64,000 nucleotides of DNA. Source: Eledone cirrhosa. Lineage: Eukaryota. Below the pieces are notes generated by a model. The model was not told the DNA's origin and made no database searches. It was given only the letters and a program-made list of their open reading frames with translations. The translations under genes and the position numbers were made by a program. The DNA is taken from assembly GCA_964016885.1 (NCBI GenBank), contig CAXHJY010000688.1:1-64000 (forward strand), in the 5' to 3' direction. Shown in pieces: positions 24,180 to 63,133 of the stretch (position 1 is the first letter of the stretch; every line of letters begins with the position of its first letter).

Positions 24180-24422
24180 TGCACACATACATATATATAT
24201 ATATATATAGAAATTACATGAATCAAAGTACAGTTTAAATCATTTATTTGGTTACAATTGTTTCCTCCAAACCGAGGTTTGGATTCTTCGCAGTAACTAT
24301 TTAGTGATATTTTACATACTTGACCTCCTTTTCAACACAAGAGACATATAAAAACATATGTATATATTGACCCACAGTGGGTTGACATCCATCATAATAA
24401 TATAGCAGTATGAATTACCAGT

Positions 24423-28163: not shown

Positions 28164-28212
28164 TTGCTCCGAAAAATCCAAACCTCGGTTTGGAGGAAAC
28201 AATTGTAAGCAA
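28164..28212 (+). ncRNA. Degenerate type I hammerhead in PLE pLTR
   Basis: ttgct-CCGAAAA(degenerate CTGAAGA)-a-tccaaacc/ggtttgga-g-GAAAC-aatt-GTA-agcaa; helix I ttgct/agcaa. Confidence 0.55.
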
Positions 28213-28411
28213 ATAAATGATTTAAACTGTACTTTGATTCATGTAATTTCTATATAACTGCTCTGTAAAACAACTGATGTTGTTACATTGAGCTATTTAT
28301 CTTACTGGTAATAAGATAGTAATGAATTACTGTCTTTCACTATTTAGAGTTTAAAATATATATAACCATAAAAGGTTTTATTATATACATAACCATAAAT
28401 AGTATCCTTAA

Positions 28412-39634: not shown

Positions 39635-40095
39635 ATACAGCCGTACCTGTATAGAGACAGCCGTACTTGTATAGAGACAGCCGTACTTGTATAGAGACAG
39701 CCGTACTTGTATAGAGACAGCCGTACTTGTATAGAGACAGCCGTACTTGTATAGAGACAGCCGTACCTGTATAGAGACAGCCGTACTTGTATAGAGACAG
39801 CCGTACCTGTATAGAGACAGCCGTACTTGTATAGAGACAGCCGTACCTGTATAGAGACAGCCGTACCTGTATAGAGACAGCCGTACTTGTATAGAGACAG
39901 CCGTACTTGTATAGAGACAGCCGTACTTGTATAGAGACAGCCGTACCTGTATAGAGACAGCCGTACCTGTATAGAGACAGCCGTACCTGTATAGAGACAG
40001 CCATACCTGTATAGAGACAGCCGTACCTGTATAGAGACAGCCGTACCTGTATAGAGACAGCCGTACCTGTATAGAGACAGCCGTACCTGTATAGA
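39635..40095. repeat. 20-bp minisatellite (ccgtacYtgtatagagacag) x ~23
   Basis: Near-perfect units differing mainly at one C/T position. Confidence 0.95.
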
Positions 40096-42908: not shown

Positions 42909-43101
42909 AACGAAGGAAATGTGGTAAGGAACCAGATGGACCATAACGCACGAAAGTACTCAATACTTAAGGTAGTAGAGTGGATAATAGGAACAAGTAT
43001 GACCCCGACGGCAGAGCTCAAGCCGTTTCGACGGCTAATTCTGCGTCCAGAATTAGCCGTCGAAATGGCTTGAGCTCTGCCATCGGGGTCATACTTGTTC
43101 C

Positions 43102-43104
<3 letters not shown>
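42909..43104. mobile_element. Miniature PLE-type foldback, arms 42987-43043 / 43048-43104 plus left tail; relatives at 47527-47676, 49861-49990, 50386-50490
   Basis: Near-perfect 57-bp inverted arms; shared gtggtaaggaaccagatggacc...gtactcaatac tail; flanked by (TA)n. Confidence 0.7.
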
Positions 43105-43132
<28 letters not shown>

Positions 43133-43420
43133 ATCAACATAAGATGATTATTTCATTTACCAGTGGTTTCTTGAAAGCAAATAAATCTGCTTTCAGTCGT
43201 CAGAATGAAAAAATCCTGGTGTTTTTCAAATCCTAGGTTTTTCAAATCCACATTCAATAAAAACACCAGGATTTTTTCATTCTGACGAGTGAAAGCAGAT
43301 TTATTTGCTTTCAAGAAACCACTGGTAAATGACATAATCATCATATGTTGTTTATTACATAAATAAGCTCTGTAACCTACATAGAGCACTCTTTTTTCCT
43401 GGACCTTTCCGACGGAATTA
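43133..43420. mobile_element. Miniature PLE-type foldback carrying hammerheads in both arms
   Basis: 43135-43226 inverted to 43259-43351; right-side tail; (TA)n flanks. Confidence 0.75.
43277..43332 (+). ncRNA. Type I hammerhead ribozyme (mirror copy 43153-43208, minus)
   Basis: tcatt-CTGACGA-g-tgaaagca/gatttatt/tgctttca-a-GAAAC-c-act-g-GTA-aatga; helices I, II and III all form. Confidence 0.75.
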
Positions 43421-43460
43421 CTTCATTTATATATAAATATATATATATGTATATATATAT

Positions 43461-44935
43461 AAGTATAAAAGAGAAAACACAGGTAAGCATTAAGAGAAGG
43501 ATTTTATCCAGGTATTTACGACCATTTCATTGGTAAGTGCAACCTTATATTGCTATACTGCAAATAGCAGCCACTCAATTATAATTGTTGTTCACAGTCC
43601 AAATTTTCAAAATAGTGAGTAAGTTACTCTTGAAATAATTCTTAATATATAGAGAAAAACATTTATTTGGAATTGTATTTACTAGTATAGAGAGAGAGGA
43701 ATCAGAAGGTGAGGGGACAAACGGAATAGTATAGAGAGAGGAAGGGGGAGAGTTAGGAAGTAGAGTGACAAACTGAGATGGAGGGAGGGGTAGAGGTGGA
43801 AGGATTCCTTGATCAGTTTTGATATTCAGACTTCATGTCTTGGAATGTAGTGAGTTAAAGAGAATTAAATTGATCGTAGTGGGAGGGATGGATAGAGAGA
43901 GAGAGAGAGAGGGGAGATATAAAGAGATAAATATATATATAAAGATAAAGATAATAATGACAAAAATAAAAGCAAAGAAGGGGGGAGAAAGAAGAAAAGA
44001 TAGCCAAGAAGGGGAGGGAAGGAAGGAAGAAAACGAAGAAATAGAAGAGGAATGAAAGAGAAGGGGGGGATATAGGTATTGGTTTTTGTGGGTAATTAAA
44101 TAGGCTTAGATACAACAAGAGGGTATAAAGTCTAAGTATATGCAGTTTGTCAGTTGGTAGTAAGAGGTTAAGGGGTTAAGGGTTCGATTTGCACTTGTAA
44201 TGCGAAAACTTCTCTTTGAGTCTATGGTTACAATAAATTGATCTTTCGATTTTATTGTTGAGTAACTTATTCTTCAAACTCAAGATGTGGAACAGCTCAA
44301 GGTCACATAATCGACAGCTTCTCATACCACTCCGATATGGGTGCGCGTGTTCGATAATTTTTTCCACTTCAGGGTGTATTGATGGTTACTTTCCCTCAGT
44401 TGCCAGGTCTTGTTTGCAAGGGTAGTTACCTAACGATGCTGGGAATGTTTCATTGCGTAACGGTGTGTATACCAACAAGCTTTAAATGTATTCCCAGTCG
44501 CTCCGATGTAATACCATTTCTGGTTGTCTGATTCCACTGCGCATTGGTAAACCAGGTTAGAGACTGCATACATTCATTTTGTAATGGACAGGTTTCAGGT
44601 AGGTGGTAGTTACAATTCTCTATATATTAAGAATTATTTCAAGAGTAACTTACTCACTATTTTGAAAATTTGGACTGTGAACAACAATTATAATTGAGTG
44701 GCTGCTATTTGCAGTATAGCAATATAAGGTTGCACTTACCAATGAAACGGTCGTAAATACCTGGATAAAATCCTTCTCTTAATGCTTACCTGTGTTTTCT
44801 CTTTTATACTTTAAGATTGAACGGAATTCTTACAAATTTGTGGAGTTACCCCTAACCGTACGTTGAAACCATCCATGAAACTGGCTTTCTTAACCACGAA
44901 CTGGATCACAAAAAGCAATTTTCTGCTTCCCTAAC
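43461..44935 (-). mobile_element. 5'-truncated PLE: GIY-YIG remnant (44176-44615) between inverted pLTRs 43461-43656 / 44616-44811
   Basis: NCN..CPL, LVYQC..WYYIG, CRLCDLE..LLN..CNHR on minus; ~195-bp near-perfect inverted repeats. Confidence 0.85.
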
Positions 44936-44950
44936 TATATATATATATAT

Positions 44951-46072
44951 AAAGTGAGAGTAGGAATGGAGTTTAGTGAGGAATTCCAGATACAAGTTGG
45001 AGTACATAAGGGTTCGGTCCTCAGCATGCTCTTGTTCATTATAGTCCTCCAAGCCATAACAGAGGAGTTTAAGACCATGGGAACTTCTCTATGCTGACGA
45101 TCTGATACTTATAGCAGAATCGGTAGAGGAGCTAGAGAATAAATTCTGGCTATGGAAACAGCAGTTGGAATCAAGAGGACTGAGCGTGAACCTAGCTAAG
45201 ATTAAAGTGTTTATAAGTAGAAAAGAGGACAAAACTCTGATTCCATCAGGGAAATGGTCATGTTCGATATGTAGGAAAGGAGTTGGCATAAATTCTATAA
45301 AATGTACACAATGCAGATCTTGGGTACAAAAGGGATGTAGTGGGATAGCAGGCAAACTAACAGGTAGGGAAAACTACATATGCAGTAGATGTACAGGGAA
45401 ATTTGACAGTAGAAGTCGCAGTGATAGACACATTTTTCAAATGCAGGTAGGATCTATAGAGGTGGTTGATAGCTTCCGATACCTAGGTGATCAGATTAAC
45501 AACGGAGGAGGGTGCTCCGAGGCCATAGTATCTAGAATAAGGACAGGTTGGAAGAAGTTTAGGGAGCTGCTTCCTCTGTTGACAAAGAAGGGTATCTCCC
45601 TGCGAATGAAAGGCCGGTTATATGATGCTGATGTGCGATGCTGCATAGTAGTGAGATATGGGCAACAACTCCAGAGGATATGCGACAGCTGGAGAGAAAT
45701 GAGGCAAGCATGCTCCGTTGGATGTGCAATGTCAATGTGCATGAATGGCCAAGCATAGATGAGTTGAGAGAGAAGCTGTGTATATGAGGGATAAGTTGTA
45801 GTGTGCTGGAGAGAAGGCTGAGATGGTATGGACATGTGATGCGCATGGAGGATGACCGCTGGGTAAAGAAATGCCAAGAAATCCCAGTAGAAGGAAGATG
45901 CCGTAGAGGAAGACCACGAAAAACATGGGTGGAGGTGGTGAGAGCTGATCTCAGATTGCTTAATCTCACGGAGGAGATGACGAATGACCGTGACAAGTGG
46001 AGAGATGCTGTGTTGAATAGGACCTGTCCCACCCATGCAAGCAGGGAAAAGCAGACGTAAAATGATGATGAT
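44951..46072 (+). mobile_element. RTE family 3, 5'-truncated and decayed
   Basis: YADD ~45090, PHD-like [28 protein letters not shown], (GAT)n tail. Confidence 0.9.
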
Positions 46073-47505
46073 ACATCTCGACTCCTCAGTATTTTCATTG
46101 CTCTAACATCACGCCGACTGAGCTCTTCGCAACCTTCGGCGTCGCGATGACTGTCATCAAACCCGCTGACAAAGGTGGCGCTGTGGTGGTTTGGAGCGCT
46201 GACCTCTATATGGCTGAGGCTCTCCGTAAGCTTCACAATATCCTTTTTTACCGCCCTTTATCCTCTGACCCCACTCCTGGCTACCAACAACTCGTGTCCT
46301 CCACCATCCACGAGCTCATCTCCTCCTCTCACCTACCCCCCACAGCCACCAACCTTATTGTACACCCCCCTCCCACACCCACCATCTACTTCCTTCCCAA
46401 AATACACAAACAAAATAATCCCGGCCGTGCTATCGTTTTGCTTGCAACTGCCCCACTGAGATAATTTTTGAATATTTAGACACCATCCTCGCCCCGTTGG
46501 TCGTCATCGCCCCTCCCACATCCACGATACAAATCATGCCCTTAAACTTTTCAACTCTTTCTCCTTCCCTCCTAGTCCCTCCCGCCTTCTCTTTACCCTG
46601 GACATCACTTCTCTCTATACCGTCATCATAAGGGATGACGGCCTCCGCGTTCTCCAACATTTTTTAGATTTACGCCCTACCCCTTACCCCAGCACTACCA
46701 CTCTTCTCCGTCTGGCTGAGCTTGTTCTCAGCCTTAATGGATTTTCTTTTTCGGGTGAATTTTATCAACAGGTCTCTGGGGTAGCAATGGAAACCAGAAT
46801 GGGTCCAAACTATGCCAACTTCTTTGTTGGCTACGTCGAAGCCCAGATCTTTTCCCAGTATGCTGGACCGACTCCTGAGCTATACGGTCGTTATATCGAC
46901 GACTGTATCAGCGCCACCTCTCTATCACGAGAACAGCTCAACTATTTTTTTGTCCAATGTTCTTTTGTCCAATCTTTCCATCCTGCTCTCAATTTACCAC
47001 CTCCGTCTCCGATTCTTCTGTCGCTTTTCTAGATATCTCTATCTATTAATCACTCTCACCACACCCTCTACTTCCATCTTCATTAAACCAAACAGGCTCC
47101 CAATCTTACGGCAACTTCAACTCCTCCCATCCAATCCACACCAAACACTCCATACCCTATTTCCAATTCCTCCGTCTTCGTCAACTCTGTAACAAGTGGA
47201 GAGATGCTGAGTAGGACCCGTCCAACCCTTGCAAGCAGGGAAAAGCGGACATAAAATGATGATGATGATGATGATTCCCTTCGCATGGCTTCCTGCTTCA
47301 TCCAGCGTGGATATTTTTATCTAAAGACATTTTTCACAATTCCATCCCGCCCATCCCCTCAATCTATCTTATTTCTCATTCTTTCTTCTGATGAAGGACT
47401 AGCGTCCGAAACGTTAAGACCTTCTTCCTGCTATATCAAGCATTAACCTAATATATCCCTTCCATATACTGTACCGATTGTATTGTTATTTCTGTTTACC
47501 TTTTA
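46073..47505 (+). mobile_element. Penelope-like element of a second type; decayed RT with internal deletion and 3' pLTR
   Basis: IKPADKGGAVVVW, YFLPKIHK, FTLDITSLY, GVAM.TRMGPNYANF, RYIDD; hammerhead near the 3' end. Confidence 0.85.
47384..47419 (+). ncRNA. Minimal type I hammerhead ribozyme with palindromic helix III
   Basis: tctt-CTGATGA-a-ggac/tagc/gtcc-GAAAC-GTT-aaga. Confidence 0.75.
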
Positions 47506-47774
47506 CATATATATATATATATATATAAAATGAAGGAGTTGTGGTAAGGAACCAGATGGACCACAACGCACCAGAGTACTCAATACTTAGGGTAGTAGAG
47601 TGGGTAATAGGAAAATGTATGACCCCGATGGCAGAGCTCAAGCCGTTTTTCCGTCGGGGTCATACATTTTCCTATATATATTATATATATATATATATAT
47701 ATAGATACATATGCATATATATATACTTACACGGAGAGAGAGAGAGATACATATACATATATCCGTATGTAGAT

Positions 47775-47965
47775 GACAGGTGAGAGAAAAGAGTACTCAA
47801 TGCCAAAGTAGAGTTTATATATTAAATTGCTATGTAGTGAGCCATCTTATTCTGGAGTTTCACCTGCATACACACAAGATCATCAAACAAGACCGTCTTG
47901 TCTGATGATCCTGTGTGTATGTAGGTGATACTCCAGAGTAAGAAGTTACACTACTTAGCCATAAT
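47775..47965. mobile_element. Decayed miniature PLE foldback with hammerhead remnants
   Basis: Arms ~47820-47893 / 47895-47966; consensus CTGATGA-t-cctg..cagg-t-GAAACtc-ca-gaGTA. Confidence 0.6.
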
Positions 47966-48613
47966 ATATACATATATATACACACAAGTCTGTAACTCTT
48001 TAAAATTTACACACACGCACATATATATATACACAATGCATTTCCTATTTCAGTCATGTTGCTACAATAAGAAGTTCACTTTTCAACCACAAGGACCTAG
48101 GTCCTAACCCTACATTTGTCCAAATAAACTTATTTCTAGAAAGTTACTTGTATATTTAATCTTGTGTATCATTTGTCCATATTTTCTAAGCATTTATGTA
48201 ATTATATCCTAGGAATAGATTATTAAAGTATCATCTTTATTTTAAATCATTTCCATGTGTCAAGAATTAACAAACTATGGGGTTTCTTTTATGCAAACCA
48301 TAAAAATACAAATTTCCCAATTTGTATGATTGTTCATATATTCAGTAATCCTGGTATATATGGCATACCAATCCTGCACTCTAAAATCTAAATACATTTG
48401 GTGCTCTTGCTACTAGTATTATAATAATTTCATTTGAGTAGGCATCAAACATTTTTGTAGTAGAGGCATAGTCAATTGAATAGATTTGGTATAATACTGG
48501 TATTCTATCAATTGCAGGGTAGGGTTGAAAGGTAAAATTAAGCCTGTAGAATGTGAATTCAGAATGATAAAATTAAATAATCTATGTCATCACTTCAGCA
48601 CTTCTATTAATTC

Positions 48614-48830
48614 ACAACCCTGATAAAGATTTCACACTGGTTGCTGTTGAGACCTCAGGCATCTTCAGACCCCACACTGCCAAACTCCTCAGTAAAATCA
48701 GATCGTCAGCAGCCCATCTGAGGAAGGAACCCCACGAGGTGGAGTGGCTGTTGCAACAAGTATCGCTGGCCATTGTCTGCAGAACACTGTCCAAACACTG
48801 CCCAACCTCAGGCATAAAGACTATCACCTC
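48614..48830 (+). pseudogene. CRE-type non-LTR C-terminal relic
   Basis: FTLVAVETSGIFRPHTAKLL...EVEWLLQQVSLAIV. Confidence 0.6.
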
Positions 48831-49611
48831 CTCTTCCCTTTCTTTCCTGGCCTCATAGTCCTTGATTTTTCCCTCCTTTTCCTTTCATGGCATTTATAGC
48901 CCTTTCTCCTACTTTCCTATACAGTCAGATTTGCCCTTCTTTATCCCCCACCCACCCCACCCATCCCACCCTGCTGTTTGTTGCTTGGTTATGTTTTTAT
49001 CCCATTTTTTCTTTCATATATTTCCATCAATATTTGTAATGTTATTTATAGAATTTTGAATTAAAAAAAAAGTTACATAAACACATAAGTTAAAGAGTTA
49101 AACTAAACAATTCTATTTCTGTCCAGTTTAAAATATATTTTTATACACCCGATTATGTATAATAATAAGCCTCCTTCTTATTGTGTAGCTAACAAGTTAC
49201 ATTCTTTCATAGCTCTTCTCAGAAGTTATAGCACAAAGCATGTCATCTCTTAATAACTATTCTCAGAAGTTACATCAAAAAAACATGTTATCTCTAAATG
49301 ACACCAATAACCTGTCGAATTTAATTCATTCAAATGACCTTGGTAAATCTAACTTGAAACCCTGTTAAAATGTAAACAAGAACAAACTATTCTTGGTGTG
49401 AATGTACCATCATGAATTTGGTAAAAAAAAAAATTGTGAAAAAAGGTGGTCTACTTTGATAGTAAATTAGAGTAAATAGTAGAAGAGAGCAACTTGATAA
49501 CTTGATTCTTGGTGGTGGCCAAACACTAACTGCAACTCAATTATACTATTTAGACATTTCTATATTTCTAATGACCTCATATCTTTGATGTTTGTACACT
49601 AGACAATTCTT

Positions 49612-49800
49612 AGGTGGTGGTGGATTGGCAGTATCAGTAGAGATTCGGACTCCATGCCTTCCAGCATAGTTACGTCTCTTTACGATCTGAGTTCAAATCC
49701 CGCCGAGGTTGACTTTGCCTTTCCTCCTTACGGGGTCGATAAAATAAAGTACCAGTAATGCACTGGGTTATTGCTGGCCTTGTGCCTAATGTAGAAACAA
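49612..49800 (+). mobile_element. tRNA-derived SINE
   Basis: tggcagtatcagtagag A-box-like, gagttcaaatcc B box, conserved gcctttc.tcctt.cggggtcgataaaataaagtaccag domain. Confidence 0.8.
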
Positions 49801-50139
49801 TTATTATCCAATCTTCAAATGTCCTATTTTAACACACAAACATGTATATATATATATATAAAGGAATTGTGGTAAGGAACCAGATGGACCATAACGCACC
49901 AGAAATACTCAATACTTAGGGTAGTAGAGTGGGAAATAGTAAAAAGTATGACCCCGACGGCAGAGCTCAAGCCGTTTCGACGGCTATTTCTTGGTGGCCC
50001 TTGAAATATGTATAATGAAATAAATATGGTTTTATAAATATAGTTTCAATTTGTTAATATATTGTATATTTACTCCAATAATTTGTTGAGTGGTTTATAT
50101 CAGTTATAAAAATATTTTGCTTGTTGTATCCCAACAAAT

Positions 50140-50169
<30 letters not shown>

Positions 50170-50176
<7 letters not shown>

Positions 50177-50353
50177 GCTTCTACAGGACTAGAACTGTTT
50201 CATTCGTGAGAAATCATCAGGAAGCTCCTGATGATTTCTCACAAATGAAACAGTTCTAGTCCTGTAGAAGCTCTTCTATATTAAAACTTTTATACTCTGC
50301 TATGTATTGAGTACCTTACTTACTGTGGTTACCTCCGATTCAACCCGGAACAA

Positions 50354-50355
<2 letters not shown>
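50170..50355. mobile_element. Miniature PLE foldback with hammerhead (50175-50227, minus)
   Basis: Minus: gagcttc-CTGATGA-tttctcacgaat-GAAACAG-ttctagtc-CTGTA-gaagctc; inverted arm to ~50278, then tail. Confidence 0.7.
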
Positions 50356-50390
<35 letters not shown>

Positions 50391-50489
50391 AAAGAGTCAG
50401 GACCCCAACAGCTGAGCTCTGGCTGTTTCGACAGCTAGATTCGAACGTTATGTTATGGTCCACATGGTATCTTACCACACCTTTTTTGT

Positions 50490-50521
<32 letters not shown>

Positions 50522-50602
50522 TACACTGGCGGCAGCACCACTCATGTCTAAGTTTGGGTTTGGTTTTTCAGGCACCTTCACGATGCTTCAACCTGAAGCT
50601 GA

Positions 50603-50845
50603 CATGGACTGGGTGCCTTTTTTGTCATGTCACCAGCACAATCACCTTACAGTATGGACTGGGTGCCTTTTTTGTCATGTCACCAGCACAATCACCTTAC
50701 AGTATGGACTGGGTGCTTTTTGTCATGTCACCAGCACAATCACCTTACAGTATGGACTGGGTGCTTTTTGTCATGTCACCAGCACAATCACCTTACAGTA
50801 TGGACTGGGTGCTTTTTATCATGTCCCCAGCTCAACCACCTTACA
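50603..50845. repeat. ~49-bp tandem repeat x5 derived from an RTE 3' UTR subrepeat
   Basis: atggactgggtgc(c)tttttgtcatgtcaccagcacaatcaccttacagt repeated. Confidence 0.9.
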
Positions 50846-52092
50846 GCCGAATGTAGCAAATAAACTATTTATTGAATCAATATAAAAGAATTAACAAAAT
50901 TCTCATTTTTCGATAATCGTGAATAGTGATATTTTTTCTCCAAACCAATGACAAGCAGATGTTTTGATGAAAAAAGCCTTATTCCAGTGAAACATGTCAA
51001 CAATTAGTTTCTTACCTGCTTCATAAGGTCTATAAGTACATTGTGCCATTTAACAATATAACCCCCATGTCAATAATATTTAGAAAATATGTATAGCCAA
51101 AATTATGTCAATATAACCATCGTCATAATATTACAAATAAAAGAGAAAAAAGAAAAAGAAAAGGAAAGAGGAAAAAAAAAACACACACACAACTAGGACC
51201 ACATGCAACAAAAAGCAGGCGAAAGGGGTGGACAAACAAAGCGCTACCCGAACAAAAGATAACGAATTCCATTGACTCTTTAGAAAATGAGAACTCACTG
51301 CCAAACCTCAAAAGCTCAATCACAAATGTTTTTAGGTTGGGCTATCTCTGCATATCTTTCTTTTATTTGTAAGGTTGAAAATATAAAAATAGATGCTTAG
51401 ACCTTTATTTTGTTTTAGCTATAACTATAAAAACCATGCTGTAGCACTGCATAAGGTTAATCTATAAACAAAACTAATTTTTCATTTTTTTTTTTTTTTT
51501 TGTTATTGAATTGATACATATTTACTGGTGGATGGAGTACACAAGGCGAACCCTTCTATAATTAAAAGTATTCCAACCATGACTAACTCTTTCTATATCT
51601 AGGAAGATATTATCCACTATAACCTATATTTAAGAGTATAAAGAAGAGAAAAGTTGGCTGTTATTTCCAGTAGGTCAAGCAACCATATAAACGCTTCCTC
51701 ATTGATTCATTCTAGGAGTATTGAAAGGACACGTGTGTTGTAGTTTGGTAGCAAAAAGGTAATCCTAATAACTTCCTGAAACAGCTGTTTCTATGATATC
51801 CAGCCCAAAACTGTGGCTACGCTTGACATCCAGTACCAGGCTCCAAAACTATGGTTCCACTGTGAGACGGGTTCAGCATGGCCAACTGGCCTGTCCCCAC
51901 TCATAATGGCGCTATCCAGTTCCACAGTGTAAATGTGATGGGTGTTAGGAAGAAAGGGCATCCAGCTGTAAAATACTAGCCAACTCTGGCCAAACTTGCC
52001 TCCCAGCCAGGACAACCCGTCTGACCCATACAAGCATGGAAAAATGGATACTAAACAGAGATGATGATGATGATTTTATATATATATATATA

Positions 52093-53111
52093 TTTCGTTT
52101 CTGAATTTGTTTAGCAAGATTCTTTATCTGAAAACGTGTGTTGAAACCGATATTGTTATACTTTGGGAGGGTCATGTTGCCAATAAGAAACACACGCACC
52201 AGTTGCTTTCACTTCAATTTATTATAAATTAAATTTATAAATTTAGGAATTTATAAATTTCCGCTTGGTTGGGTGGTTCCACAACCAGACGATTGTTCAT
52301 ATATTGTCAGTTCTTTCGTCACACATTCTGTGACCTCTTCAGTGACTGGGGATTCTTTTCTTTGTTTTTGTGCCTCTCCTTTGTTCTGTTCTACGCCATC
52401 TTGTTTTTGTGTGTGTTGTGTGCTTAGTTTGCACATGTGTTACATCCGGGTGTCTGTGTGTGTTTATATTTGTTTATTTATTTGTTTATTTACATGTTAC
52501 TGGTTGGTTGTTTGTTCTATGTGCGTGTGTGTTTTCATTTTGTCCTTAATTTTAAGTTGTGATGTTGCTGTTCCACTCATGTTTTCTATTTAATTTTGGT
52601 TGTAATTCATTTATGTTTATTGCCTCTGTGATTTGTCTAAACATTGCGTCACAGAGGCAATAAACATAAATGAACTCCAACCAAAATTAAATAGAAAGCA
52701 TGAATGGAATAGCAACATCACAACTTACAATTAAGGACAAAATGAAAACACACACGCACATAGAACAAACAACCAACCAGTAACATGTAAATAAACAAAT
52801 AAATAAACAAATATAAACACACACAGACACCCGGATGTAACACATGTGCAAACTAAACACAAAATCAAGATGGCGTAGAACAGAACAAAGGAGAGGCACA
52901 AAAACAAAGAAAAGAATCCCCAGTCACTGAAGAGGTCACAGAATGTGTGACGAAAGAACTGACAATATATGAACAATCGTCTGGTTGTGGAACCACCCAG
53001 CCAACTGGAAATTTATAAATTCCTAAATTTATAAATTTAATTTATAATAAATTGAAGTGAAAGCAACTGGTGCATGTGTTTCTTATTGGCAACATGACCC
53101 TCCCAAAGTAT

Positions 53112-53119
<8 letters not shown>
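52093..53119. mobile_element. ~970-bp palindromic PLE-type element (arms 52150-52631 / 52649-53119, left tail)
   Basis: Near-perfect ~475-bp inverted arms with a 17-bp spacer; hammerhead-like gtca-CTGAAGA-g-gtcaca/tgtgac-GAAA at 52923-52963. Confidence 0.8.
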
Positions 53120-53148
<29 letters not shown>

Positions 53149-55540
53149 TTTTGTCATAATTTCATGTAAGAACATTTAAGTTATGTTCCAAACAGCAGCT
53201 TAATAATTAGAAAGTTAGTTGTATTACTTAATCCTTCCAAATTCTTGGTTATTTACAAAATTATTTGAAAATCATACGCAGTGTTTTCCATTAAAAGTAT
53301 GTTAGTAAAAGAGTTAAACATATTTTGATTTTTTTTTTTAAATAAAAAAAACATCTACCAATTCATGTGTTTATCTCGTGCCATTAACCCTTTCATTACC
53401 ATATTTCTAATGACAATGCCAATGGTTTTCAAATAATTTTCAAAATAAATCTGGAATTTTGGGGAATTTAGTAATATAATTAACTTTCCCTTTCGATGAA
53501 GAGTGGCATTTTATTACAGGTAATTCAACCTGTAAGCTACCAAAGTACTACACAATTATACAATGATTCTGATCTCTACACAAATCAGCTGTATTTTTCT
53601 CCATCTCACTATTTACAACTTGGAAAATGGGAAAAATTAAATATCTTTGTCAGAACAATACCAGTGCTAGGATATAGATGATCAAATATTCAGCTTACAG
53701 GCCAACATCCTAATTCAAATATATTATAAAAACAAAATTAATGAAAACAAAAGAGGAAGCATTAAAGAAAAGCAGATCTAGCTGTATAATAAAGGAAAGG
53801 ACTATAAATGCCATAAATGAGAAGAAAGGGAGAAAAGATTATCAGGCAACGGAAGAAAGAGAAGGGGAAAGGGTGAGACTTTCAACTAGTTCAATATTTA
53901 TTTCATCTCGACCAAACCGAATGAGATTATCTGCTAAGCTGGATAGAGACTTAACAATTTCAATACAATATTTCTAATGGCATACACTGTATTTTTAATA
54001 ATTAATAAAGAATTTGATGGGATTTACTAAAGTTATTTAATATTAAGACAATATTTGTAACATAACGAAAGATTTTAATGAAAAAAATAATGTTGGAAGG
54101 TTTCAATTTAAATAGGAACTTTTTTTTTAATGGTTGGTTTTGTTTCACAGAAGCTGAGCCAGTTTTAGCTAAGAAGGTATCAAAAAGTTTTTAAGATGGT
54201 AAATATACTGATCTGAGACAATATAGATGAGTAAGAAAAACAATAATTATGAGGGAGGAACCAAGAAGTCTTAGACTTTCAAAGAAGTAGAATTAAGAAA
54301 ACTAATTATTTTGTTTTTCTGAAAGGCAATATAAATGAAGTATGTTTTCAAGATATACACTATCTCCATTATAGTAAGATGTTTATACAATACCATAGTG
54401 TGCTGCATTAACATTTTCAAGGAACCATATCCATGTGTTAGGTTAATTCTCAACATCTTGTAATGATTTTAAACAGAAAATGCCTAAAAACAAGTTTGTT
54501 CATTCAAATGTTTATACTATCATTATTAGTAAGCAGATGGTCATCAAAATTTGCAGCTTTAGAGAAAAGACTTTAATTCTTTAATATGATGCAGTCAAAG
54601 TGCTGGCATGTACTTTTTTTTTTTAATGTCTTGCTAATGCGGTTTCGTGCGGTACAGGATATTAAGAGTTAAATACTAATTAATATACATTTTTAACATT
54701 TACAAGTTATAATTGTTTGACATTCTGAATTGAACCTGGTTGTCCTTCAAAAGGGCACTTATTAGTCTTCCTTTAATATGAGGATATGGTTACATCTAAT
54801 TCTTAGCCGAAAATCAGGATTAAACATAATGTATGTAGATTACTGAGGTTAGACTACTCATAAGCGGTTAAATCCTATGTTATAATACAGACAGGAAGGG
54901 CAAACAAAACATTCAGTTTATTAAGTTTGTGATTTTGTCATCAAGTATTTGAATGAAACACATTTTAAAAGTTAAAAAATATTTTATATATATATATACT
55001 TTTTTTTAATCATTTTTTTCTTAAAAACAAAAAACCATGACTGAATTCATATCTAACAAAAGTTTAGATTTTAACTGTCTTTGATTATCTCTCTAAAACC
55101 TCTATTTTAACATGCTATTATTATATGTACAGATACTCTGTCTCCTTATCCATAGATATCTTCTCAAACTGTTTTTTTTTTTTCTAATCCCTGTTCTGTG
55201 TGAATCTTTTTTAAAAGTGGCAGGCTTGTATAGTCTTTAACCCACATGGATCCCACAAGTTGTTTTATACCAATAAACACAATACAGTCCAAATGAGCAG
55301 CAAAGTATACCAAGTTTTATCCACCTTATTGCACAGATCAGATGCATAGACATTATACAGCAAACAATACATGTGTTCATGATAAGACACATGAGATTGA
55401 TCGCTGGACATTACTTGAAAGGACAAAGTAAGAAACAGCAGCATCTTAGAGAAAGTTTAGCTTTCTATTGAAGAAATATTGCTACAGTAATTCTACTACC
55501 TGCTTAGAAGTGTCCAAAGAATAAAGAAATCTCAAATACA

Positions 55541-55766
55541 CCCTCTAGCATTTAAACCGGCCGTAACCAGCCAAAAGTCTCTCACCTCTTTCTGTTCAAA
55601 CCAGCTGTAACTGGTCGCTCATACCTACATTAAGGTATTGTTCTCAAAATAAATAACATCAAAATCTCATAGATTCATTATTTTATGTGAGATAATTATG
55701 TGAGGTAAAGCCTTTACCATGAAAATACAATAATATATATAGAGTAATGTAAATGCTAAAGGGTTA
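55541..55766. mobile_element. piggyBac-like MITE
   Basis: ccctctagcattta ... taaatgctaaagggtta inverted ends. Confidence 0.6.
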
Positions 55767-55960
55767 GGACAAATACTCTAATCACAACTAGTGGCATGGG
55801 ATATGAGGATAGATTACAACTGAAATATAAGAATATCATTAAAAAATACAAGGAGATTAAATATTGATGTCTACAGCAACACAAGACAGAAACCTGTCGC
55901 ACGAGCAATTCATTTTATATATGAAACAGTCATCGTTGATATTAATGAGCAGCCAATGAT

Positions 55961-56007
<47 letters not shown>

Positions 56008-56473
56008 CATGAAGTACAAGTCAACAGGTTAGAATTTACTTCGTTTATTCATAATCGCTGTTATATATATTTTAGTGATAACTTATGCAACAATTATGAC
56101 CTCATCAAATAGCTAAAAGTGGAGTGCTCTATCCTGCATACATTGTTTTAACATCCATTTTTCCCTGCAAGCAACGGTTGGACCTGACTACATAGACCTA
56201 GTCAGTACTGAAGCAATGGCTACTGATCTCCCAGACAAGCCAGGAATCTGTCACAGCACTTATGTATGGTCTCACATTCTACCAGATGCACAAGAGAGGT
56301 TATCACATCTTTGACACAACCAAGGGTCCTCCCAAACCTTTGTTTGGCAAGCTTTCTACAGCTGGATGACCTTCCTATCACCAACTACTTTAGTGTATAC
56401 TGAGTGTGTTTATTGTGTGTGTGTGTGTTTATTGTGTGCGTGTGTGTGTGTGTGTGGTGTGGTGTGTATGTAT

Positions 56474-56655
56474 GTGGATTGGCAGTATAGGTAGAGAGTC
56501 GGGCGCCATGCTTTCCAGCATAGTTACGTCCCTTTACGATCTGAGTTCAAATCCCACCGAGGTTAACTTTGGCTTTCATCCTTACGGGGTCGATAAAATA
56601 AAGTACCAGTAATGTACTGGATATTTGCTGGCCTTGTGCCAAATGTAGAAACAAT
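56474..56655 (+). mobile_element. tRNA-derived SINE (same family as 49612)
   Basis: B box gagttcaaatcc and shared downstream domain. Confidence 0.8.
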
Positions 56656-57528
56656 TATTTTCCATCTATTTTTCTGTGCTGGGTTTGACAAGTCAGTCAT
56701 TCAAAGTTACTGCCTTCCTAAATGGATCAAGACCACATCTTCCATTTTTTTTTTTTTTTTTTTTTTTGCAATGATTGAATGCCCTTCACTTTACAAAGTG
56801 TGCTGGATGCATTTCTCTTTTTTTTTTTTTGTAGCACCAAAACTAGAGAGGTTATCATACCTCTAGCAATACTAGAGTCCTCCTTACACTATGCTCTCTC
56901 TACATTTGTTTGCCAACAGCTTTCTGTACTAGCTTGGCTTGTTATTGTCAAATCAGTTCTTATTCAGATTTAATATCCTCCTAGATGGATCAAGGAACCA
57001 CATTTTATTTGTATATTCCAATTTTTTTGGTGTGGTTTCTACAGTAATTTATCATTACACAAGTGTTGAGGTTGTCAACAAGACTAAAGACTCCTCACTA
57101 TCCTATAGTATCTCAGTTAAATCAAACATTTTATAGAATTTATTGGGTGCATTTTATTATGATGCCATTACGAGAGAGTCCTCTCCATTCAATATCATCT
57201 CTTATTTTTCAAGGCAAATATGCCCAAGAGTTTAATTTGAATACGGGAATAGTGGCAGAGAGAGAGATAGAGAATTCAGGGAGAGAGAGGGGTGTTCAAG
57301 GAGAGAGAGAGGAGGGGGATTCAAGGAGAGAGTATGAATATGACCATGAAAAAGAAAAAAGTGAAAGGATAGCATAGAAGTGAGAGGAGGAGGAAGGAGA
57401 ATGATAGCTACATGTTGGTTGTTGGTAGAAGGGTGGTTGAGCCAATGAGTGTGTGATAGTAAGAGAGAGCTGGTGGTGAATAGCAACTAAGAAATATGAT
57501 GGTGAGACTAGTGGATAACATCTAAAAC

Positions 57529-58860
57529 AATTGTTATATTTGGGGAGGGTCGTGTTATAATATTGCCAGAAAAATATTGTAAAACACACTCAGTTTGGTT
57601 TGGTTTGGGTTTCGCTCCAGTACAGGAATACAATGGAAAGAAACAGAAACATCACTGATGATGTGACAGTTATGTGATGAAAGAACTCCGAGAAACTATA
57701 TTAATATTTATAAATTTAACTGTTGGTCAATCAATGATAAATATTGATTACCAGCTGAATTAATTATATAAATATATATTAAAAAAATATATATATATAT
57801 AAAAATATATATAAAAAAATATATATATAAAGGGCAGTGCCCCAACATGGCCTCAGCCAGATGGCTGGAACAGGTAAAAGAGTATATATAGTTATACATA
57901 CATACATGGTGGCTGCCAACTCGTTTTCGAGTACGGCCACTACTTTATATACATGTAGGAGAACCCCTACCGATGCGCTGAACGAGTGTGACTTTTTAGT
58001 CCAGCCAGCGACTTGAAAACTCTGGTACAAACACTACACTTGTGACAATTATTGACACATAGTGCTTTGCCTTTGGTACCATGTGACGACAAGTGCAGAG
58101 AGATCTCCAGATATAAAGCAATGCCTGTGCCGTGAAGCTTTTATAGTGAGCAAAGGCACTGCACAAAGCCAGTCCCACTCTCTTAACCAAGATGATATTT
58201 ACCAAAAAGAAGAACAAGTCAACATCACTGGATACCATCAGGGTTGCAGGTTTTATATCAGAGTTTTCTTTCTCCTAGAATTCTGCTCTGACAAAGGCTA
58301 AGGGGTCATCTCTCCCAGTGATTTTGGATGGCCATTGACTCTTAAGAGCTCCTTTGACAGGTTTTGTTTTTGGTCCTGCAGGATGTCCAAAGTCACCCTC
58401 CTCACCAAGAAACCTTGGTGGGGTTGCCAGTTTAGTCGCCAACGACCCGACCATGAGACAGGTTGTACTGGGATACATGTAACCAGTTGCACTAACTTGT
58501 GACCTGACATACATACATACATACATACGTACATATATATATATATATAAATAAAAACACAGCCAACTGTATACAGTAAACTAAATGTGTGCACTCTGAA
58601 CAGTTGATTGCAGCTGCATAACTGCAATTTGCCAGATTCATTGAATGAGCTAGACGCTGGCCGAGGGATGCTGAATTTATACCAGCAATCTTCGTTACTT
58701 TTGTTATATATATATATACTGTAGCGAAAACCAACCGAAACCAAACAGTGAGTGTGTTTTACTATATTTTTCTGGCAATATTATAACAATATGACCCTCC
58801 CCAAATATAACAATATCAGTTTCAACTCACAATTTCATATGAAAAACCTTGCAAAACAAA
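57529..58860. mobile_element. PLE-type relic with inverted termini (57529-57622 / 58717-58813), containing nested insertions
   Basis: Same terminal family as 3097 and 52093; hammerhead-like tca-CTGATGA...GAAAGAACTC at 57652-57690. Confidence 0.7.
57907..58507 (-). mobile_element. Non-autonomous ~600-bp retroelement, copy 3; candidate HDV-like ribozyme at 58427-58504
   Basis: Matches copies 1 and 2; flanked by catacat and (CATA)n. Confidence 0.85.
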
Positions 58861-60232
58861 TACATCGCCCTCACAGCTAAAACAGTGGAACAGTGGAAGT
58901 GTGGATATGAGAGTAACATGGCATGCTGGTTGTAGGCAAGAGATTGAGCAATAGGGGTGCATATCATGGTGTTAGGATAATAGTGATGGCAACAGAGAAG
59001 TGCAATGATAAGTTGTAAATGACAGACTAAGTCACATGGTGATGAAAATGATGGTTATGTCATTGGTATTGTGTAGAGAGATGGGAAGATGGATAAATGT
59101 CAATGAGTCACAATACATATAAACACACATACATGCATAAGATACATACATACATAAGATGCATATATACATACATACAATACACATGCATACATACATA
59201 AGGTGCACACACACATACCTAAGATACATATATACATACGCTACGTAACATACAAACATAAGATACACACATACCTAAGATACATACATACACACACACA
59301 TACTCAAGATTCATATATAAAATACATACATAAGAGACATACACACACCAGATACACACATACAAGATACACACCAACACACAAGACACACAAACAATAT
59401 ACACACACACACAAGACACACACAAGACACACAAGACACACACAAGACACACACACTTTTACTTGCTAAATGTAAAAATGCAGTAAATATTACACAATAT
59501 ATTATTCAGGTACTATCAAAATCAAAAGGTAGTATACCATGTACACTAGAATATATACTGATATGAATATAAGCCAACCCCTCTATGTTATGGCTGAGAA
59601 ATGGGCAAAAATCAAAACCCTATTTACATACAATTTGAAGTTGGTGAAAATTGTTAAAATGGTTATGTAGGTGACCTGAGGTCGTTGACATGTTGGCCTT
59701 GCTTCCAGGACAACCCCAGGCCATATGCATTCACACTGCCTATCTTGAGTGAGGTCATAATCTATTAAGAGGAGAAAGATAAAATAGCACCCAGTACACA
59801 CAGTAAATATGGTTGGCATTAGGTAGTGTATCTAGTCATAGAAACCATGCTAGAAACAGTTATGTATGAGCAAGATATGGTCATCTGATCTGGTTTGTCT
59901 CACAGCAGGACAACTCCTCTAACACATGCTATCATGATGATGATTGACCACCAAATATAAGCTGAACCCACCAACCATCGATGTTTTGGTTACACATTCC
60001 TCCGTTTATATTTGAGTATATACAAAAAGTTTGATATTTTTGTAAAAGCACTAGACCTTACAGAAGCTGTGATACTAATGCCTTTCCAATGGACACAAGT
60101 AATGAGAAATGAAAATGTTTGAACCAAGAATCAACACTAGCTTCATGATTGATTTTACTTTGACTTTATAACATTTATTTGTCACAATACATTATCATAC
60201 AATATATTGATTTCCAACAAGGGGTGAAAAAG

Positions 60233-60556
60233 GGTAAAGGGTAAAGACCCCCTTTGGTCACGAATGACCATGGGATTTGTCAAGGCACAAGTCCGGGCAA
60301 CAAGTGTTTGTTGAAGACTAGCAATCACCCATACATACCAGCCTCCCTCTCCATGCCACCAATGTGGTCCAAGGTTAAGGCAATGGCCGATACAGCTTGG
60401 CACCAGCGACATCACAGCACGTTTCTACAGCTGAATAAACTGGAGCAACTTAAAATAAAGAGACTTACTCAAGGACACAACACACAGCCAGGTCTGGGAA
60501 TAAAACTCACAACCTCATGATTATAAGCCCAACTCTCTAACCACTAAGCTATACAC
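60233..60556 (-). mobile_element. Full-length tRNA-derived CORE-type SINE
   Basis: Minus: tagcttagtggttagag A box, gtgagttttattcc B-box-like, ccttgagtaagtctctttatttt..gttgctccag; (ctttacc)n tail. Confidence 0.75.
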
Positions 60557-61271
60557 TTTCAGGGAGGAGGGGTGGGGGGTATAATCAATTAATTTGAACC
60601 CAGTATGACTGGTACTTTGTTGGATTTTTTTTACTTCAGAATGCAAAGATCTGTAGCAAAACATCACAGGGTATTTTACCTGATGTGCTATTAATTCTGT
60701 CATCTCAATACCTTTATAATATATTGCCAAATATTTCAGACTAACAAATGTTTTACTCTTAAACATCAACAAGAATATACCATTTCTTGATATGTAAACC
60801 CAGAAAACCTAATTGGTTGTCAGCTTCCTCACTTCTCAACATTTGTTTTAAGAAACAATTTGGATTTTTAAAAAAATAAACATAGAATGTTAAGTTACTT
60901 TATATATATATATATATATATATATGAGATAATAAGATAAGTTCAAAGAATCATTAGATAAAATATATACAGTATTTCCTCTCCCAATCAGTATAAATCA
61001 ACTACACAAAAAAATCATTTAAACGAGGCTATAAGTTTAAAATGTACTTATGAAGAAATAATAGACAAATGATATAGCTTCTTTTCCGTGACTTACAGCT
61101 ACAAAATATTTACCTAATATTCCTACTAGCCTGTAGAAATTGACTAGTTGCCAAAAACATATATATGTATCTATGAATTTATATATACCCTTTAAATTTA
61201 ATATATACCCATGCTAGCGTGTAAGATGGACGTTAAATGATGATGATGATATATATATATATATATATATA

Positions 61272-62400
61272 TCAGCAAAACTATATGGAGGAGAAGGCAA
61301 TACATTTAAAAACAAGATTTACTTCTTACACAGTGTTTCATCTAAAGTACCATTACAGGTCTATATATATGCATATCCATATATATTATTATAAAGCTCA
61401 TGCACTTCAGAATCTTCAGAGAAGAAATTTTATTGTCTTTAATGATGTTGCTGGAGGAAAGTCCAATCTGTATAACAGCAAAACGAATTTATCATTTAAT
61501 GGTATAATTAATCCTTCAGATGAATGCTTAGAGACAAATATACATCGGCGTTCATACCTTGATCTGTAATACGTTTAAACGGAGAACAAACTTATTTATC
61601 TAAAATGGAGGCTATAAAGGGGCATAATTATCTAAGTGCAATAACTGTGGTATATTTAAAAAAAAATTAATTATAACTTGCCAAAGTTAAGTGACATTGA
61701 GAGTAGATGTTAGGTGGTGTGTTGGGGGCCAAGGTGGTGTGTTGGGGGCCAAGGGGGCCAAGGTCTTTAATTAAGTCATCAATTATAAGCTGCAGTGGTC
61801 TAGCATTTATTAAGGTGGGGAAGAGGGAAAGGAGAAAAATACTTTTTAAAAAAAATTTTAGATATCCTAACTACTCTATAGAAAATAGCTAATAGGGTTG
61901 AGGGAGGAAATTGAGGCTGAACATTTTAGATGGCTATATGAGATCATAGGCTCTGTTAGAGAAACAGTAGGGAAGCCTGTGTGAGCAATTGATTACTGCT
62001 TCGGCTCTACTGTTAATAAGTGTAGGTGCGGAGCTTGTCATATAATATGCCCCATCAGACACAAATTACATTTCTTCTTAAAGTTATAAGAGGCTGCCCT
62101 CTCTATTATACTCCATTGGGTTGTGTAACTAGTGTTGGAATCTATTAATTGAGTAATATAGTTTGTGAGAGAAGTTGAGAACTTGAGTTTTCTATTTTTA
62201 AACGAATGGAGATGAGATCTAAATCCAGTTTTGAATTCATTAGAGGTAGCTCCTATGGACGATTTAATATTATTATCTGTAGTGACTGTGCACTAATAGA
62301 TTACATTACTAACTAGGCAATGACCCTGAAGTGGACAGTTTCTAGGGGTACTATAATTACAGTTCTTGTGGTTATTTTTTACTATTGTATTCTGTCAATC
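61272..62400 (-). mobile_element. PLE 3' relic with GIY-YIG remnant (~61960-62370)
   Basis: NCN..PRNCPLQGHCLVSNVIY*CTV..SIGATSNEFK..H..SF and CNLC on minus. Confidence 0.75.
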
Positions 62401-62607
62401 ATTTAAGCTATGGTTATTTACATCAAATCACGTGCTAGTATTATGCATGTTAGCGTTATAATCATTGCCACAATGGCCACCATCATAACCATCACTAATA
62501 GTAAAGGAATCAATATTACTATTATCATTAATACCGCCATAATAATTACTATTAATTACAATAACTATTACAATACCATTATTACAATAACTATATATAT
62601 ATATAAG

Positions 62608-63131
62608 TATAATAAAATAACAGGAGGCTGGAGTTGTGTAAATCCTTGAAAGGTTTATTATACTATGATCATTTCAATGACCGGGTTCCGTATGAATCCG
62701 GTGATATCATCAGGTATTCGAAATATAATAAATGCATGTAACAGATAAAATCCATGGGGCTGAAAATCATAGACTCGAGGACCGCTGGCTAAAGTGGAAG
62801 ATGCTAGATGGTCGGTTGTCCTCAAGTCTATGATTTTCAGCCCCATGGATTTTATCTGTTACATGCATTTATTATATTTCGAATACCTGATGATATCACC
62901 AGATTCATACGGAACCCGGTCATTGAAATGATCATAGTATAATAAACCTTTCAAGGATTTACACAAGTCCAGCCTCCTGTTATTTTATTATAATATTTAT
63001 CTCCGTACTCGCACCACCAACTACACAAACGAAGACGGTTGAGCTGCTTTACGTTGAGTACTCCCCATATTATTACATCAAGATTGACCATACGGAATGA
63101 CCAGCTCTATCCAGTGGTGAACCTTCAAACC

Positions 63132-63133
<2 letters not shown>
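62608..63133. mobile_element. Miniature PLE foldback (arms 62608-62782 / 62818-62992, right tail) with hammerheads in both arms
   Basis: ~175-bp near-perfect inverted arms; (TA)n flanks. Confidence 0.8.
62883..62940 (+). ncRNA. Type I hammerhead ribozyme (mirror copy 62660-62717, minus)
   Basis: atac-CTGATGA-[extended stem II acc.gattc/gaacccggt]-GAAATG-at-CATA-gtat; palindromic helix III atgatcat. Confidence 0.65.

What the first reader, a model, noticed from the sequence alone, without database searches (positions are those of the whole stretch)
42909..63133. Swarm of miniature palindromic, hammerhead-bearing non-coding elements with a ribozyme on each strand
Seen: at least six unrelated short sequences share one architecture, (TA)n - arm - short spacer - inverted arm - unpaired tail - (TA)n, with no ORF (42909, 43133, 47775, 50170, 52093, 62608; also 3097 and 57529). 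In five of them the arm contains a type I hammerhead core (CTGANGA...GAAA), so a transcript of either strand carries a ribozyme. Established: PLE pLTRs contain type I hammerheads and PLE insertions often have an inverted pLTR. Inference: these may be a MITE-like, pLTR-only class mobilised by PLE RT/GIY-YIG rather than one-off abortive insertions; the both-polarity ribozyme layout recalls viroid/retrozyme RNAs.
Basis: partly seen in the sequence, partly recalled or inferred. Interest (0 to 1): 0.75.

Follow-up and report, generated by a model that had tools for sequence, protein, structure and literature searches.

The report
Miniature head-to-head Penelope insertion stubs
These small mirror-image sequences are real and very numerous, but they are the short ends of several Penelope-type jumping genes, likely rebuilt at every insertion by copying one short RNA onto both sides of a DNA cut, and their ribozymes are predicted to be trapped rather than active.

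Summary
The hairpins are real. A random 600 kb held 39, 26 beside (TA)n, about 10^5 genome-wide. They are 3' ends (pLTRs) of Penelope-like elements (PLEs): long copies of three families run into RT/GIY-YIG ORFs, and 52093 itself carries endonuclease codons.

The hairpin is not copied as a unit. In family E1 (42909), 37 of 37 sampled junctions differ, and the window's junction is in 75 of 7,266 hairpins. Loci sharing a junction carry different subfamily alleles and the tail on either side. Both arms of one locus share alleles. In full-hairpin RNA the cores are predicted paired (P 0.85-1.0).

Best reading: both nicked ends of a (TA)n cut prime copies of one pLTR RNA, which are then joined head to head. 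In four families the arm ends pile up about 30 nt below a TATA-like box, so the template is probably a short promoter-to-tail transcript (inferred; no RNA data).

The layout is in print (PMC3846280, PMC8557442, PMC4209133), and this scan reported it on other DNA. MITE-like and viroid-like readings are not supported.

The parts
42910..43101 (.). E1 mini insertion: tailed arm (sense on -, 42910-43040) joined head to head to tail-less arm (sense on +, 43050-43101); holds only the 3' half of the family ribozyme; pLTR of a Hydra-type PLE
43130..43437 (.). E2 mini insertion: tail-less arm 43130-43226 (sense on -), tailed arm ~43240-43437 (sense on +); hammerhead cores at 43203 (-) and 43282 (+), both with three stems; parent ORF not found
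47760..47965 (.). E3 older mini insertion; tail on left; both cores mutated (GATA on +, TTGATGA on -)
50172..50355 (.). E4 mini insertion; junction at the 5' strand of stem I; cores at 50220 (-) and 50228 (+); tail 50276-50355; pLTR of a Hydra-type PLE
52093..53116 (.). E5 1-kb head-to-head insertion; tail 52093-52152; both arms start inside the C-terminus of a GIY-YIG ORF (about 52545-52735); cores at 52342 (-) and 52927 (+)
62608..63133 (.). E6 insertion; arms 62608-62992, tail 62993-63133; cores at 62713 (-) and 62887 (+); parent ORF not found
47528..47676 (.). second E1 hairpin with a different junction
49861..49991 (-). E1 single-arm copy without inverted partner
50388..50489 (.). diverged E1-type copy: one arm joined to the tail end only
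3097..3445 (.). E5-related insertion with unequal arms (inverted part 59 bp), no hammerhead core
57529..57760 (.). E5-related decayed insertion, one core at 57655 (+)
58719..58861 (+). E5-related single-arm copy with tail
46107..47507 (+). decayed 5'-truncated PLE (RT remnants with a YIDD motif) ending in a hammerhead at 47388 and (TA)n; a separate family
   Evidence: PLE assignment from recalled RT motifs, no Pfam hit

Best explanation
These hairpins are the short 3' ends of several Penelope-like retroelement families, and each one was likely built during its own insertion, when both nicked ends of a (TA)n target primed reverse transcription of the same short pLTR RNA and the two copies were joined head to head. 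Shown: pLTR identity, fixed outer ends, variable inner junctions, alleles shared by the two arms. Step 1 (inferred): a promoter in the pLTR of long copies makes a 130-140-nt RNA running from a start site to the tail, with no ORF. Step 2 (inferred from PMC11167929): PLE protein binds it in trans, the endonuclease nicks both strands of (TA)n, and RT starts at two fixed internal sites, the two ends of the tail. Step 3 (inferred): both cDNAs run to or near the RNA 5' end and are joined by end joining, with small deletions, microhomology or inserts. The minis lack the upstream TATA-like box, so they are probably dead on arrival. Their ribozymes are passengers, predicted to be sequestered in any read-through RNA.
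For: Link to PLE ORFs: L152 has inverted pLTR - pLTR - RT/GIY-YIG remnants - 3'UTR - E1 tail in one orientation. The E4 pLTR lies next to the same ORF at two loci (L153, L163; 99.8% aa identity). E5 abuts a GIY-YIG ORF in L151 and L167 (L167 piece passes the Pfam GIY-YIG cut-off, 22.9 vs 22.6). Two fixed outer ends: the tail-less arm ends at d=78 from the tail end in 33 of 42 E1 hairpins and at d=68-75 in 21 of 25 E4 hairpins. Inner junctions: 37 of 37 distinct in E1 (42 found, 37 resolvable) and 20 of 22 in E4 (25 found); E1 shows 24 inserts, 9 microhomologies and 4 blunt joins. Arms of one locus differ by 4.6% against 8.9-9.4% between loci (E1, 38 of 42 used) and 3.3% against 7.3-8.3% (E4, 22 of 25 used); 0 of 5000 permutations reached this. 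The tail-less arm is the longer one in 19 of 42 E1 and 12 of 25 E4 hairpins, so it cannot be a fold-back copy of the tailed cDNA. 5' ends cluster in the unbiased 600-kb sample: 11 of 16 E1 arms at d123-146 and 10 of 12 E4 arms at d120-133. The E1 mode (d137-138, 26 of 74 arm ends) is the A of TT/TC-A-GTC, 29-31 nt below TATTTAAA or TATTTATT. The E4 limit (d134-135) is 30 nt below TATAAATA. Only 2 of 434 (E1) and 2 of 555 (E4) reference positions have this motif pair (motif chosen after seeing the data). The E1 cluster lies inside the ribozyme, not at its edge. The five E1 haplotypes seen in long, TATA-bearing copies cover 125 of 144 short arms.
Against: No RNA data: the start site is predicted from motifs only. 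The 5'-cap test was not supportive: G precedes the E1 start base 2,929 times and C 2,812 times among 17,544. E3 failed the motif-pair test (no site among 205 positions), although long copies show TATTTATA or TATTTTTA about 30 nt upstream by eye; many E7 copies have TATCCA or TATTCA there. The E1 cluster also coincides with the 3' strand of a weak stem-loop. In E3 and E4 it coincides with the 5' base of stem I. In E6, 11 of 30 tailed arms end at d351-362, at the base of a GC-rich stem-loop with no TATA motif. E2 and E5 show no cluster. Gene conversion between arms after insertion could also make arms alike. The E4 subfamily of the window has no long copy in my sample (5 of 38 short arms). Parent ORFs of E2, E3 and E6 were not found. 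Target-site duplications cannot be read in (TA)n.
Confidence: 0.7

Rival explanations
1. Same de novo head-to-head insertions, but the shared 5' ends are set by RNA structure (RT stalling, or nuclease trimming or cutting at a stem or loop of the long PLE transcript), not by a transcription start.
For: E6 ends pile up at the base of a strong stem-loop. E3 and E4 ends coincide with the 5' base of hammerhead stem I, and E1 ends with a small stem-loop. No cap-G excess.
Against: In E1 the RT must pass stronger helices (stems I-III, 3' strands) before stopping at a weak AU-rich one. E1, E4 and E7 each stop at a pyrimidine-A-G start with a TATA-like motif 29-33 nt upstream. No cluster was seen at the ribozyme cleavage site.
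Confidence: 0.25
2. Self-renewing SINE-like class: minis keep enough promoter at the hairpin centre to be transcribed outward as single-arm RNAs, which PLE protein reinserts, rebuilding the hairpin each time.
For: Short copies outnumber long ones about 10 to 1 in E1 (144 vs 14 arms; sample partly query-biased). Many keep the putative +1 base. The D. virilis Penelope promoter is internal and TATA-less (PMC2377424, passages). Variable junctions and shared arm alleles fit this model equally well.
Against: The main short-copy haplotypes are all present in long copies. The TATA-like box and the -1/-2 bases are lost in most minis. By eye there is no RGWYV-type downstream element (consensus recalled) at +28 to +32 in E1, E4 or E7. 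Ends erode by several bases at each insertion.
Confidence: 0.12
3. The inverted arm arises by self-priming or fold-back, as proposed for PLE palindromic junctions (on an antisense template) in PMC3846280.
For: Arms share alleles. Some junctions are perfect or near-perfect palindromes.
Against: Either arm can be the longer one. Both arms stop near the same 5' limit, with inserts in 24 of 37 E1 junctions. Both outer ends are fixed sites abutting (TA)n. Fold-back on an antisense RNA was not excluded directly.
Confidence: 0.1
4. One reading: a MITE-like hairpin element copied as a whole unit by PLE enzymes.
For: Some junctions recur: among the first 50 E1 hairpins listed, 27 junction types occur and the top three have 9, 5 and 5 members (counted by hand); 75 loci share the window's junction.
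Against: 21 loci with the window's junction carry at least six arm haplotypes, with the tail left in 5 and right in 16. The three commonest junctions behave the same way (9, 5 and 5 loci). No arm-specific difference is shared by more than 3 loci.
Confidence: 0.04
5. Viroid- or retrozyme-like RNA replicon with an active ribozyme in both polarities.
For: Cores lie on both strands in E2, E4, E5 and E6; 7 such hairpins in 600 kb.
Against: The sense core always lies in the downstream arm, and its mean probability of pairing with the upstream antisense arm is 0.85-1.0 in all 10 strand folds that had a core. There are no head-to-tail repeats to give a monomer. E1 minis have no core, and the E5 copy lacks 2 nt at the predicted cut site in both arms relative to L020 and L151.
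Confidence: 0.02

Closest known systems
Inverted 5'-truncated pLTR insertions of endonuclease-bearing PLEs (Pen2a_Av and others, PMC3846280; scheme in PMC8557442 Fig. 2 legend)
   Same: Head-to-head inverted copy, tail on one end only, AT-rich or microsatellite target, hammerhead in the pLTR, pLTR sufficient in cis for mobilisation in trans
   Different: Here both copies are often only 50-200 nt, carry no ORF and are the commonest product (tens of thousands per family). Tails are 60-140 nt rather than 30-40 nt. 5' ends cluster at a predicted start site.
Hydra clade of C-terminal EN+ PLEs (PMC8557442, section read)
   Same: Parents of E1 and E4 show CxCX5C linker, CxxC and CxH around the conserved E and N, RWK-like and DKT motifs, about 700-aa relatives, (TA)n insertion and hammerheads
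   Different: No tree was built. [quoted passage not shown] The mini form is therefore not clade-specific.
Minimal PLE hammerheads, including opposite-strand pairs 100-700 bp apart and the U3-A8 core variant in Schistosoma (PMC4209133, parts 1-2 of 4 read)
   Same: Type I cores with long stem II and short or palindromic stem III; paired motifs on opposite strands; long E1 copies have TTGAGAA or TTGATAA in 5 of 11, a U3-A8-type core
   Different: In E1 the predicted promoter and start site lie inside the extended stem II, so the short copies hold only half a ribozyme.
Poseidon PAc mechanism (PMC11167929, main text parts 1-2 of 4 read)
   Same: Both strands of AT-rich DNA are cut and extended; RT starts at two internal sites that bound the tail; ribozyme cleavage is not needed
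   Different: That work did not reconstitute head-to-head joining; the joining step here is inferred from junctions.
Animal non-LTR retrozymes (PMC7229834 passages; bioRxiv 10.64898/2026.07.22.740005 part 1 of 5) and non-autonomous Chlamys/MRC1 (PMC8557442 passage)
   Same: Non-coding, pLTR-related, dependent on PLE enzymes
   Different: Those are head-to-tail tandem units with their own propagating RNA; these are single head-to-head stubs with no sign of their own lineage.

Membership tests
EN+ PLE insertion | Terminal repeat belongs to an element with an RT + GIY-YIG ORF | tested here: met
   Met for E1 (L152), E4 (L153, L163) and E5 (L151, L167). Pfam GIY-YIG is below cut-off for L153 (E 0.005) and RT identity rests on recalled motifs. 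Not found for E2, E3, E6.
EN+ PLE insertion | Inverted, variably 5'-truncated copy joined head to head | tested here: met
EN+ PLE insertion | Tail on one end only, bounded by two fixed sites | tested here: met
   E1 d78 in 33 of 42, E4 d68-75 in 21 of 25, E6 d135-143 in 11 of 12 inverted arms
EN+ PLE insertion | Type I hammerhead in the pLTR | tested here: met
   Sequence and fold only; Rfam gave no hammerhead match; activity untested
EN+ PLE insertion | Target-site duplication | not testable with these tools
   Flanks are (TA)n, so a duplication cannot be read
Hydra clade (parents of E1, E4) | CxCX5C linker, CxxC/CxH motifs, RWK, DKT, no CCHH, short ORF | tested here: met
   Read by eye in translations of L152 and L153 and homologue P0002 against PMC8557442 section 11
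Hydra clade (parents of E1, E4) | Phylogenetic placement with reference Hydra RTs | not tested
   No named reference sequences at hand
MITE-like unit element | Fixed internal sequence and junction inherited between copies | tested here: not met
MITE-like unit element | Uniform size and high copy number | tested here: met
   Met for E1 and E4; not for E2 and E5
Non-LTR retrozyme | Head-to-tail tandem units, each with a complete hammerhead | tested here: not met
Non-LTR retrozyme / viroid-like RNA | Self-cleavage and circular RNA | not testable with these tools
   Folding predicts sequestered cores; no bench or RNA data

The most novel reading that the evidence does not exclude
The minis are a self-renewing, SINE-like parasite class of PLEs: each hairpin is a back-to-back promoter that emits single-arm RNAs, PLE enzymes reinsert them, and the palindrome is rebuilt by double priming in every cycle.
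Probability: 0.12. Interest if true: 0.7.

Novelty: new member of a known kind. Interest (0 to 1): 0.38.

Why it matters
How PLEs make their inverted copy and tail is unsettled: PMC3846280 proposes self-priming, while PMC11167929 shows two RT start sites and cutting of both strands. Thousands of tiny, countable insertions give a natural test set. Here it favours two cDNAs from one RNA joined end to end, and suggests that short pLTR transcripts soak up much of the PLE enzyme. About 10^5 such hairpins also make a large potential source of double-stranded RNA and would be misfiled as MITEs or miRNA hairpins (one search shows only miRNA-type matches). It is not a new class of replicon.

Tried and rejected
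Cap-G signature: in the first E1 sample several arms ending at the putative +1 carried an untemplated G, but genome-wide G and C were equal (2,929 vs 2,812). Both counts are inflated by microhomology and by a TCAGTC subfamily, so this is inconclusive and not used as support. A DNA search with the E5 end returned nothing because the tool skips very common words; E5 was assessed from random stretches instead. One search used microsatellite-rich references and was largely uninformative; it was redone masked, and an apparent E6 cluster at d287-289 was partly a reference indel. The E2 search query favoured copies of at least 193 nt and the E6 query at least 204 nt, so their end distributions are biased. 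Pfam did not recognise the RT, PDB gave no relative, and the Atlas gave no answer. PLE ORFs near E2 and E6 long copies (L161, L158, L170) point the wrong way and were not counted as parents. Literature: searches listed no paper on a mini head-to-head PLE class or on 5' ends clustered at a pLTR start site; the library lacks most subscription papers (e.g. Arkhipova 2006, Lunse 2017, recalled only), and no supplements were read.
Full report
Observation. The window comes from a 3.0-Gb animal genome (G000). Self-comparison shows hairpins at 42990-43101 (E1), 43130-43355 (E2), 50173-50275 (E4), 52153-53116 (E5) and 62608-62992 (E6), with a one-sided unpaired tail and (TA)n flanks; E3 at about 47760-47965 is older. 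Hammerhead cores lie on both strands in E2, E4, E5 and E6, always in the downstream arm. E3's two cores are mutated and E1 has none. Stem-checking descriptors passed both strands for E2 and E6 or E5; Rfam gave no hammerhead match. E5 is not ORF-free: its arms open with ...AMFRQITEAININELQPKLNRKHEWNSNITT, the end of a GIY-YIG protein also seen in L151. 3097, 57529 and 58719 are E5 relatives, and 47528, 49861 and 50388 are further E1 copies with other junctions.

Abundance. Sixty 10-kb stretches at round coordinates on the large contigs held 39 hairpins with arms of at least 30 bp; 26 touched TA repeats and 7 had a core on both strands. This extrapolates to about 195,000, 130,000 and 35,000 (95% intervals 138-266k, 85-190k, 14-72k). 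E1 had 11 insertions and E4 had 9 in that sample. An exact E1 25-mer occurs 17,544 times, and 7,266 E1 hairpins match exact anchors with a gap of at most 12 nt.

Identity. I extended 20 long copies to 10 kb. L152 shows inverted pLTR, pLTR, RT and GIY-YIG remnants, 3'UTR and the E1 tail in canonical order. L153 and L163 place one ORF (99.8% identical) beside the E4 pLTR. L151 and L167 join a GIY-YIG ORF to E5. The L153 protein has 682 relatives at E<=1e-20, many near 700 aa and unnamed. It carries the CxCX5C, CxxC and CxH motifs, and L152 the RWK-like and DKT motifs, that PMC8557442 gives for the Hydra clade. Pfam support is weak except for the E5 endonuclease piece. Parents of E2, E3 and E6 were not found.

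Are hairpins copied as units? Outer ends are fixed but inner junctions are not: 37 of 37 resolvable E1 junctions and 20 of 22 E4 junctions differ, mostly with inserts or 1-3-nt microhomology. In genome order, the first 50 E1 hairpins show 27 junction types, the commonest in 9 (hand count), and the window's junction is in 75 loci. I therefore examined 21 loci with the window's junction and 19 with the three commonest ones. Each set mixes subfamily haplotypes and has the tail on either side, so recurrent junctions are convergent. The two E4 pairs with equal junctions also differ in alleles. Arms within a locus are about twice as alike as arms between loci (0 of 5000 permutations), and diagnostic alleles sit in both arms (for example E1 site d104: 21 T/T, 17 A/A, none mixed). 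Both arms thus come from one template, or were converted afterwards. The tail-less arm is longer than the tailed arm in 19 of 42 E1 and 12 of 25 E4 hairpins (shorter in 10 and 5), which a fold-back from the tailed cDNA cannot give.

Why so uniform in size? In the unbiased sample, 11 of 16 E1 arms end at d123-146 and 10 of 12 E4 arms at d120-133; E2 and E5 ends are spread. The E1 mode is the A of TTAGTC (TCAGTC in 3 of 10 long copies), 29-31 nt below TATTTAAA or TATTTATT. E4 stops at the A of CCAGATT, 30 nt below TATAAATA. A seventh family (E7, seen in neighbouring DNA) stops at TTAGTT, and E3 near AGTTCTTGTC. This reads as a TATA/initiator promoter (consensus motifs recalled; PMC3846280 reports such a pair in a rotifer pLTR, passage read). 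In E1 the site lies inside the long stem II of a U3-A8-type hammerhead, so the minis lack the core; this separates a start site from a ribozyme-edge stall. Against it: the cap-G test was null, E3 failed the scripted motif test, E6 ends pile up at a strong stem-loop without a TATA motif, and no RNA was available.

Ribozymes. In folds of the full hairpins, the core paired with the upstream antisense arm at mean probability 0.85-1.0 in all 10 strands that had a core. Because that arm is transcribed first, co-transcriptional folding should not rescue cleavage (inference). PMC11167929 found ribozyme cleavage dispensable for insertion in vitro, and PMC4209133 found minimal PLE hammerheads weak and already noted opposite-strand pairs 100-700 bp apart.

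Mechanism. Most likely, a short pLTR transcript (or, in E5-type cases, a long transcript copied incompletely) is bound by PLE protein. Both nicked (TA)n ends prime RT at the two tail boundaries, and end joining links the two cDNA ends. Shown: structure, family origin, junction diversity, allele sharing. Inferred: double priming (about 0.8), start-site origin of the short class (about 0.6), inactivity of minis as sources (about 0.85; five haplotypes of long copies cover 125 of 144 short E1 arms).

Comparison and verdict. The architecture is the published inverted-pLTR-plus-tail insertion of endonuclease-bearing PLEs (PMC3846280 passages and discussion; PMC8557442 passages and section 11; PMC8969392 passage), here in miniature and at very high copy number. 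It fails the tests for a unit-copied MITE-like element and for a retrozyme. My searches listed no paper on start-site-bounded mini insertions, but the library is partial and supplements were not read. This scan has noted the same miniature form and start-site idea in other genomes, and double priming in this genome; those notes are not independent evidence. New member of a known kind; interest 0.38.

Noticed in passing
L007, L036, L049, L239, L244 (long E1 copies): The E1 ribozyme has a non-canonical core (TTGAGAA, TTGATAA or CTGAGAA; U3-A8 type) and a very long stem II that contains the TATA-like box and the predicted start site, so it can form only in read-through RNA.
   Followed up: partly
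window 46107-47507: Decayed PLE with RT remnants and a hammerhead at 47388; the 3' end of an RTE-like LINE (about 47189-47257, matching 45990-46063) is inserted in it.
   Followed up: partly
window 43462-43656 and 44616-44810: 195-bp inverted pair, 99.5% identical, around a 960-bp piece next to E2; may be a longer young inverted-pLTR insertion.
   Followed up: no
window 24210-24407 and 28048-28250: 200-bp inverted pair 3.6 kb apart, beside (TA)n; possibly another long inverted PLE insertion.
   Followed up: no
window 900-5100 and 8100-12200: Multi-kb degenerate (TA)n-based satellites; one hosts the 3097 insertion.
   Followed up: no
window 44952-46070, 5206-8139, 12599-15557, 17236-18927, 20662-23527: Several copies of RTE-like LINEs (label recalled from the translation and the (GAT)n end).
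   Followed up: no
window 39637-40095 and 50604-50846: Tandem arrays with 20-bp and 48-50-bp units.
   Followed up: no
L002, L005, L101, L119, L163 (E7); L049, L184, L214 (E8): Two more hammerhead-bearing pLTR families forming the same head-to-head stubs in neighbouring DNA.
   Followed up: partly
L168, minus strand, 321-codon open frame: Intronless frame resembling a mitochondrial carrier protein (recalled resemblance, not searched).
   Followed up: no
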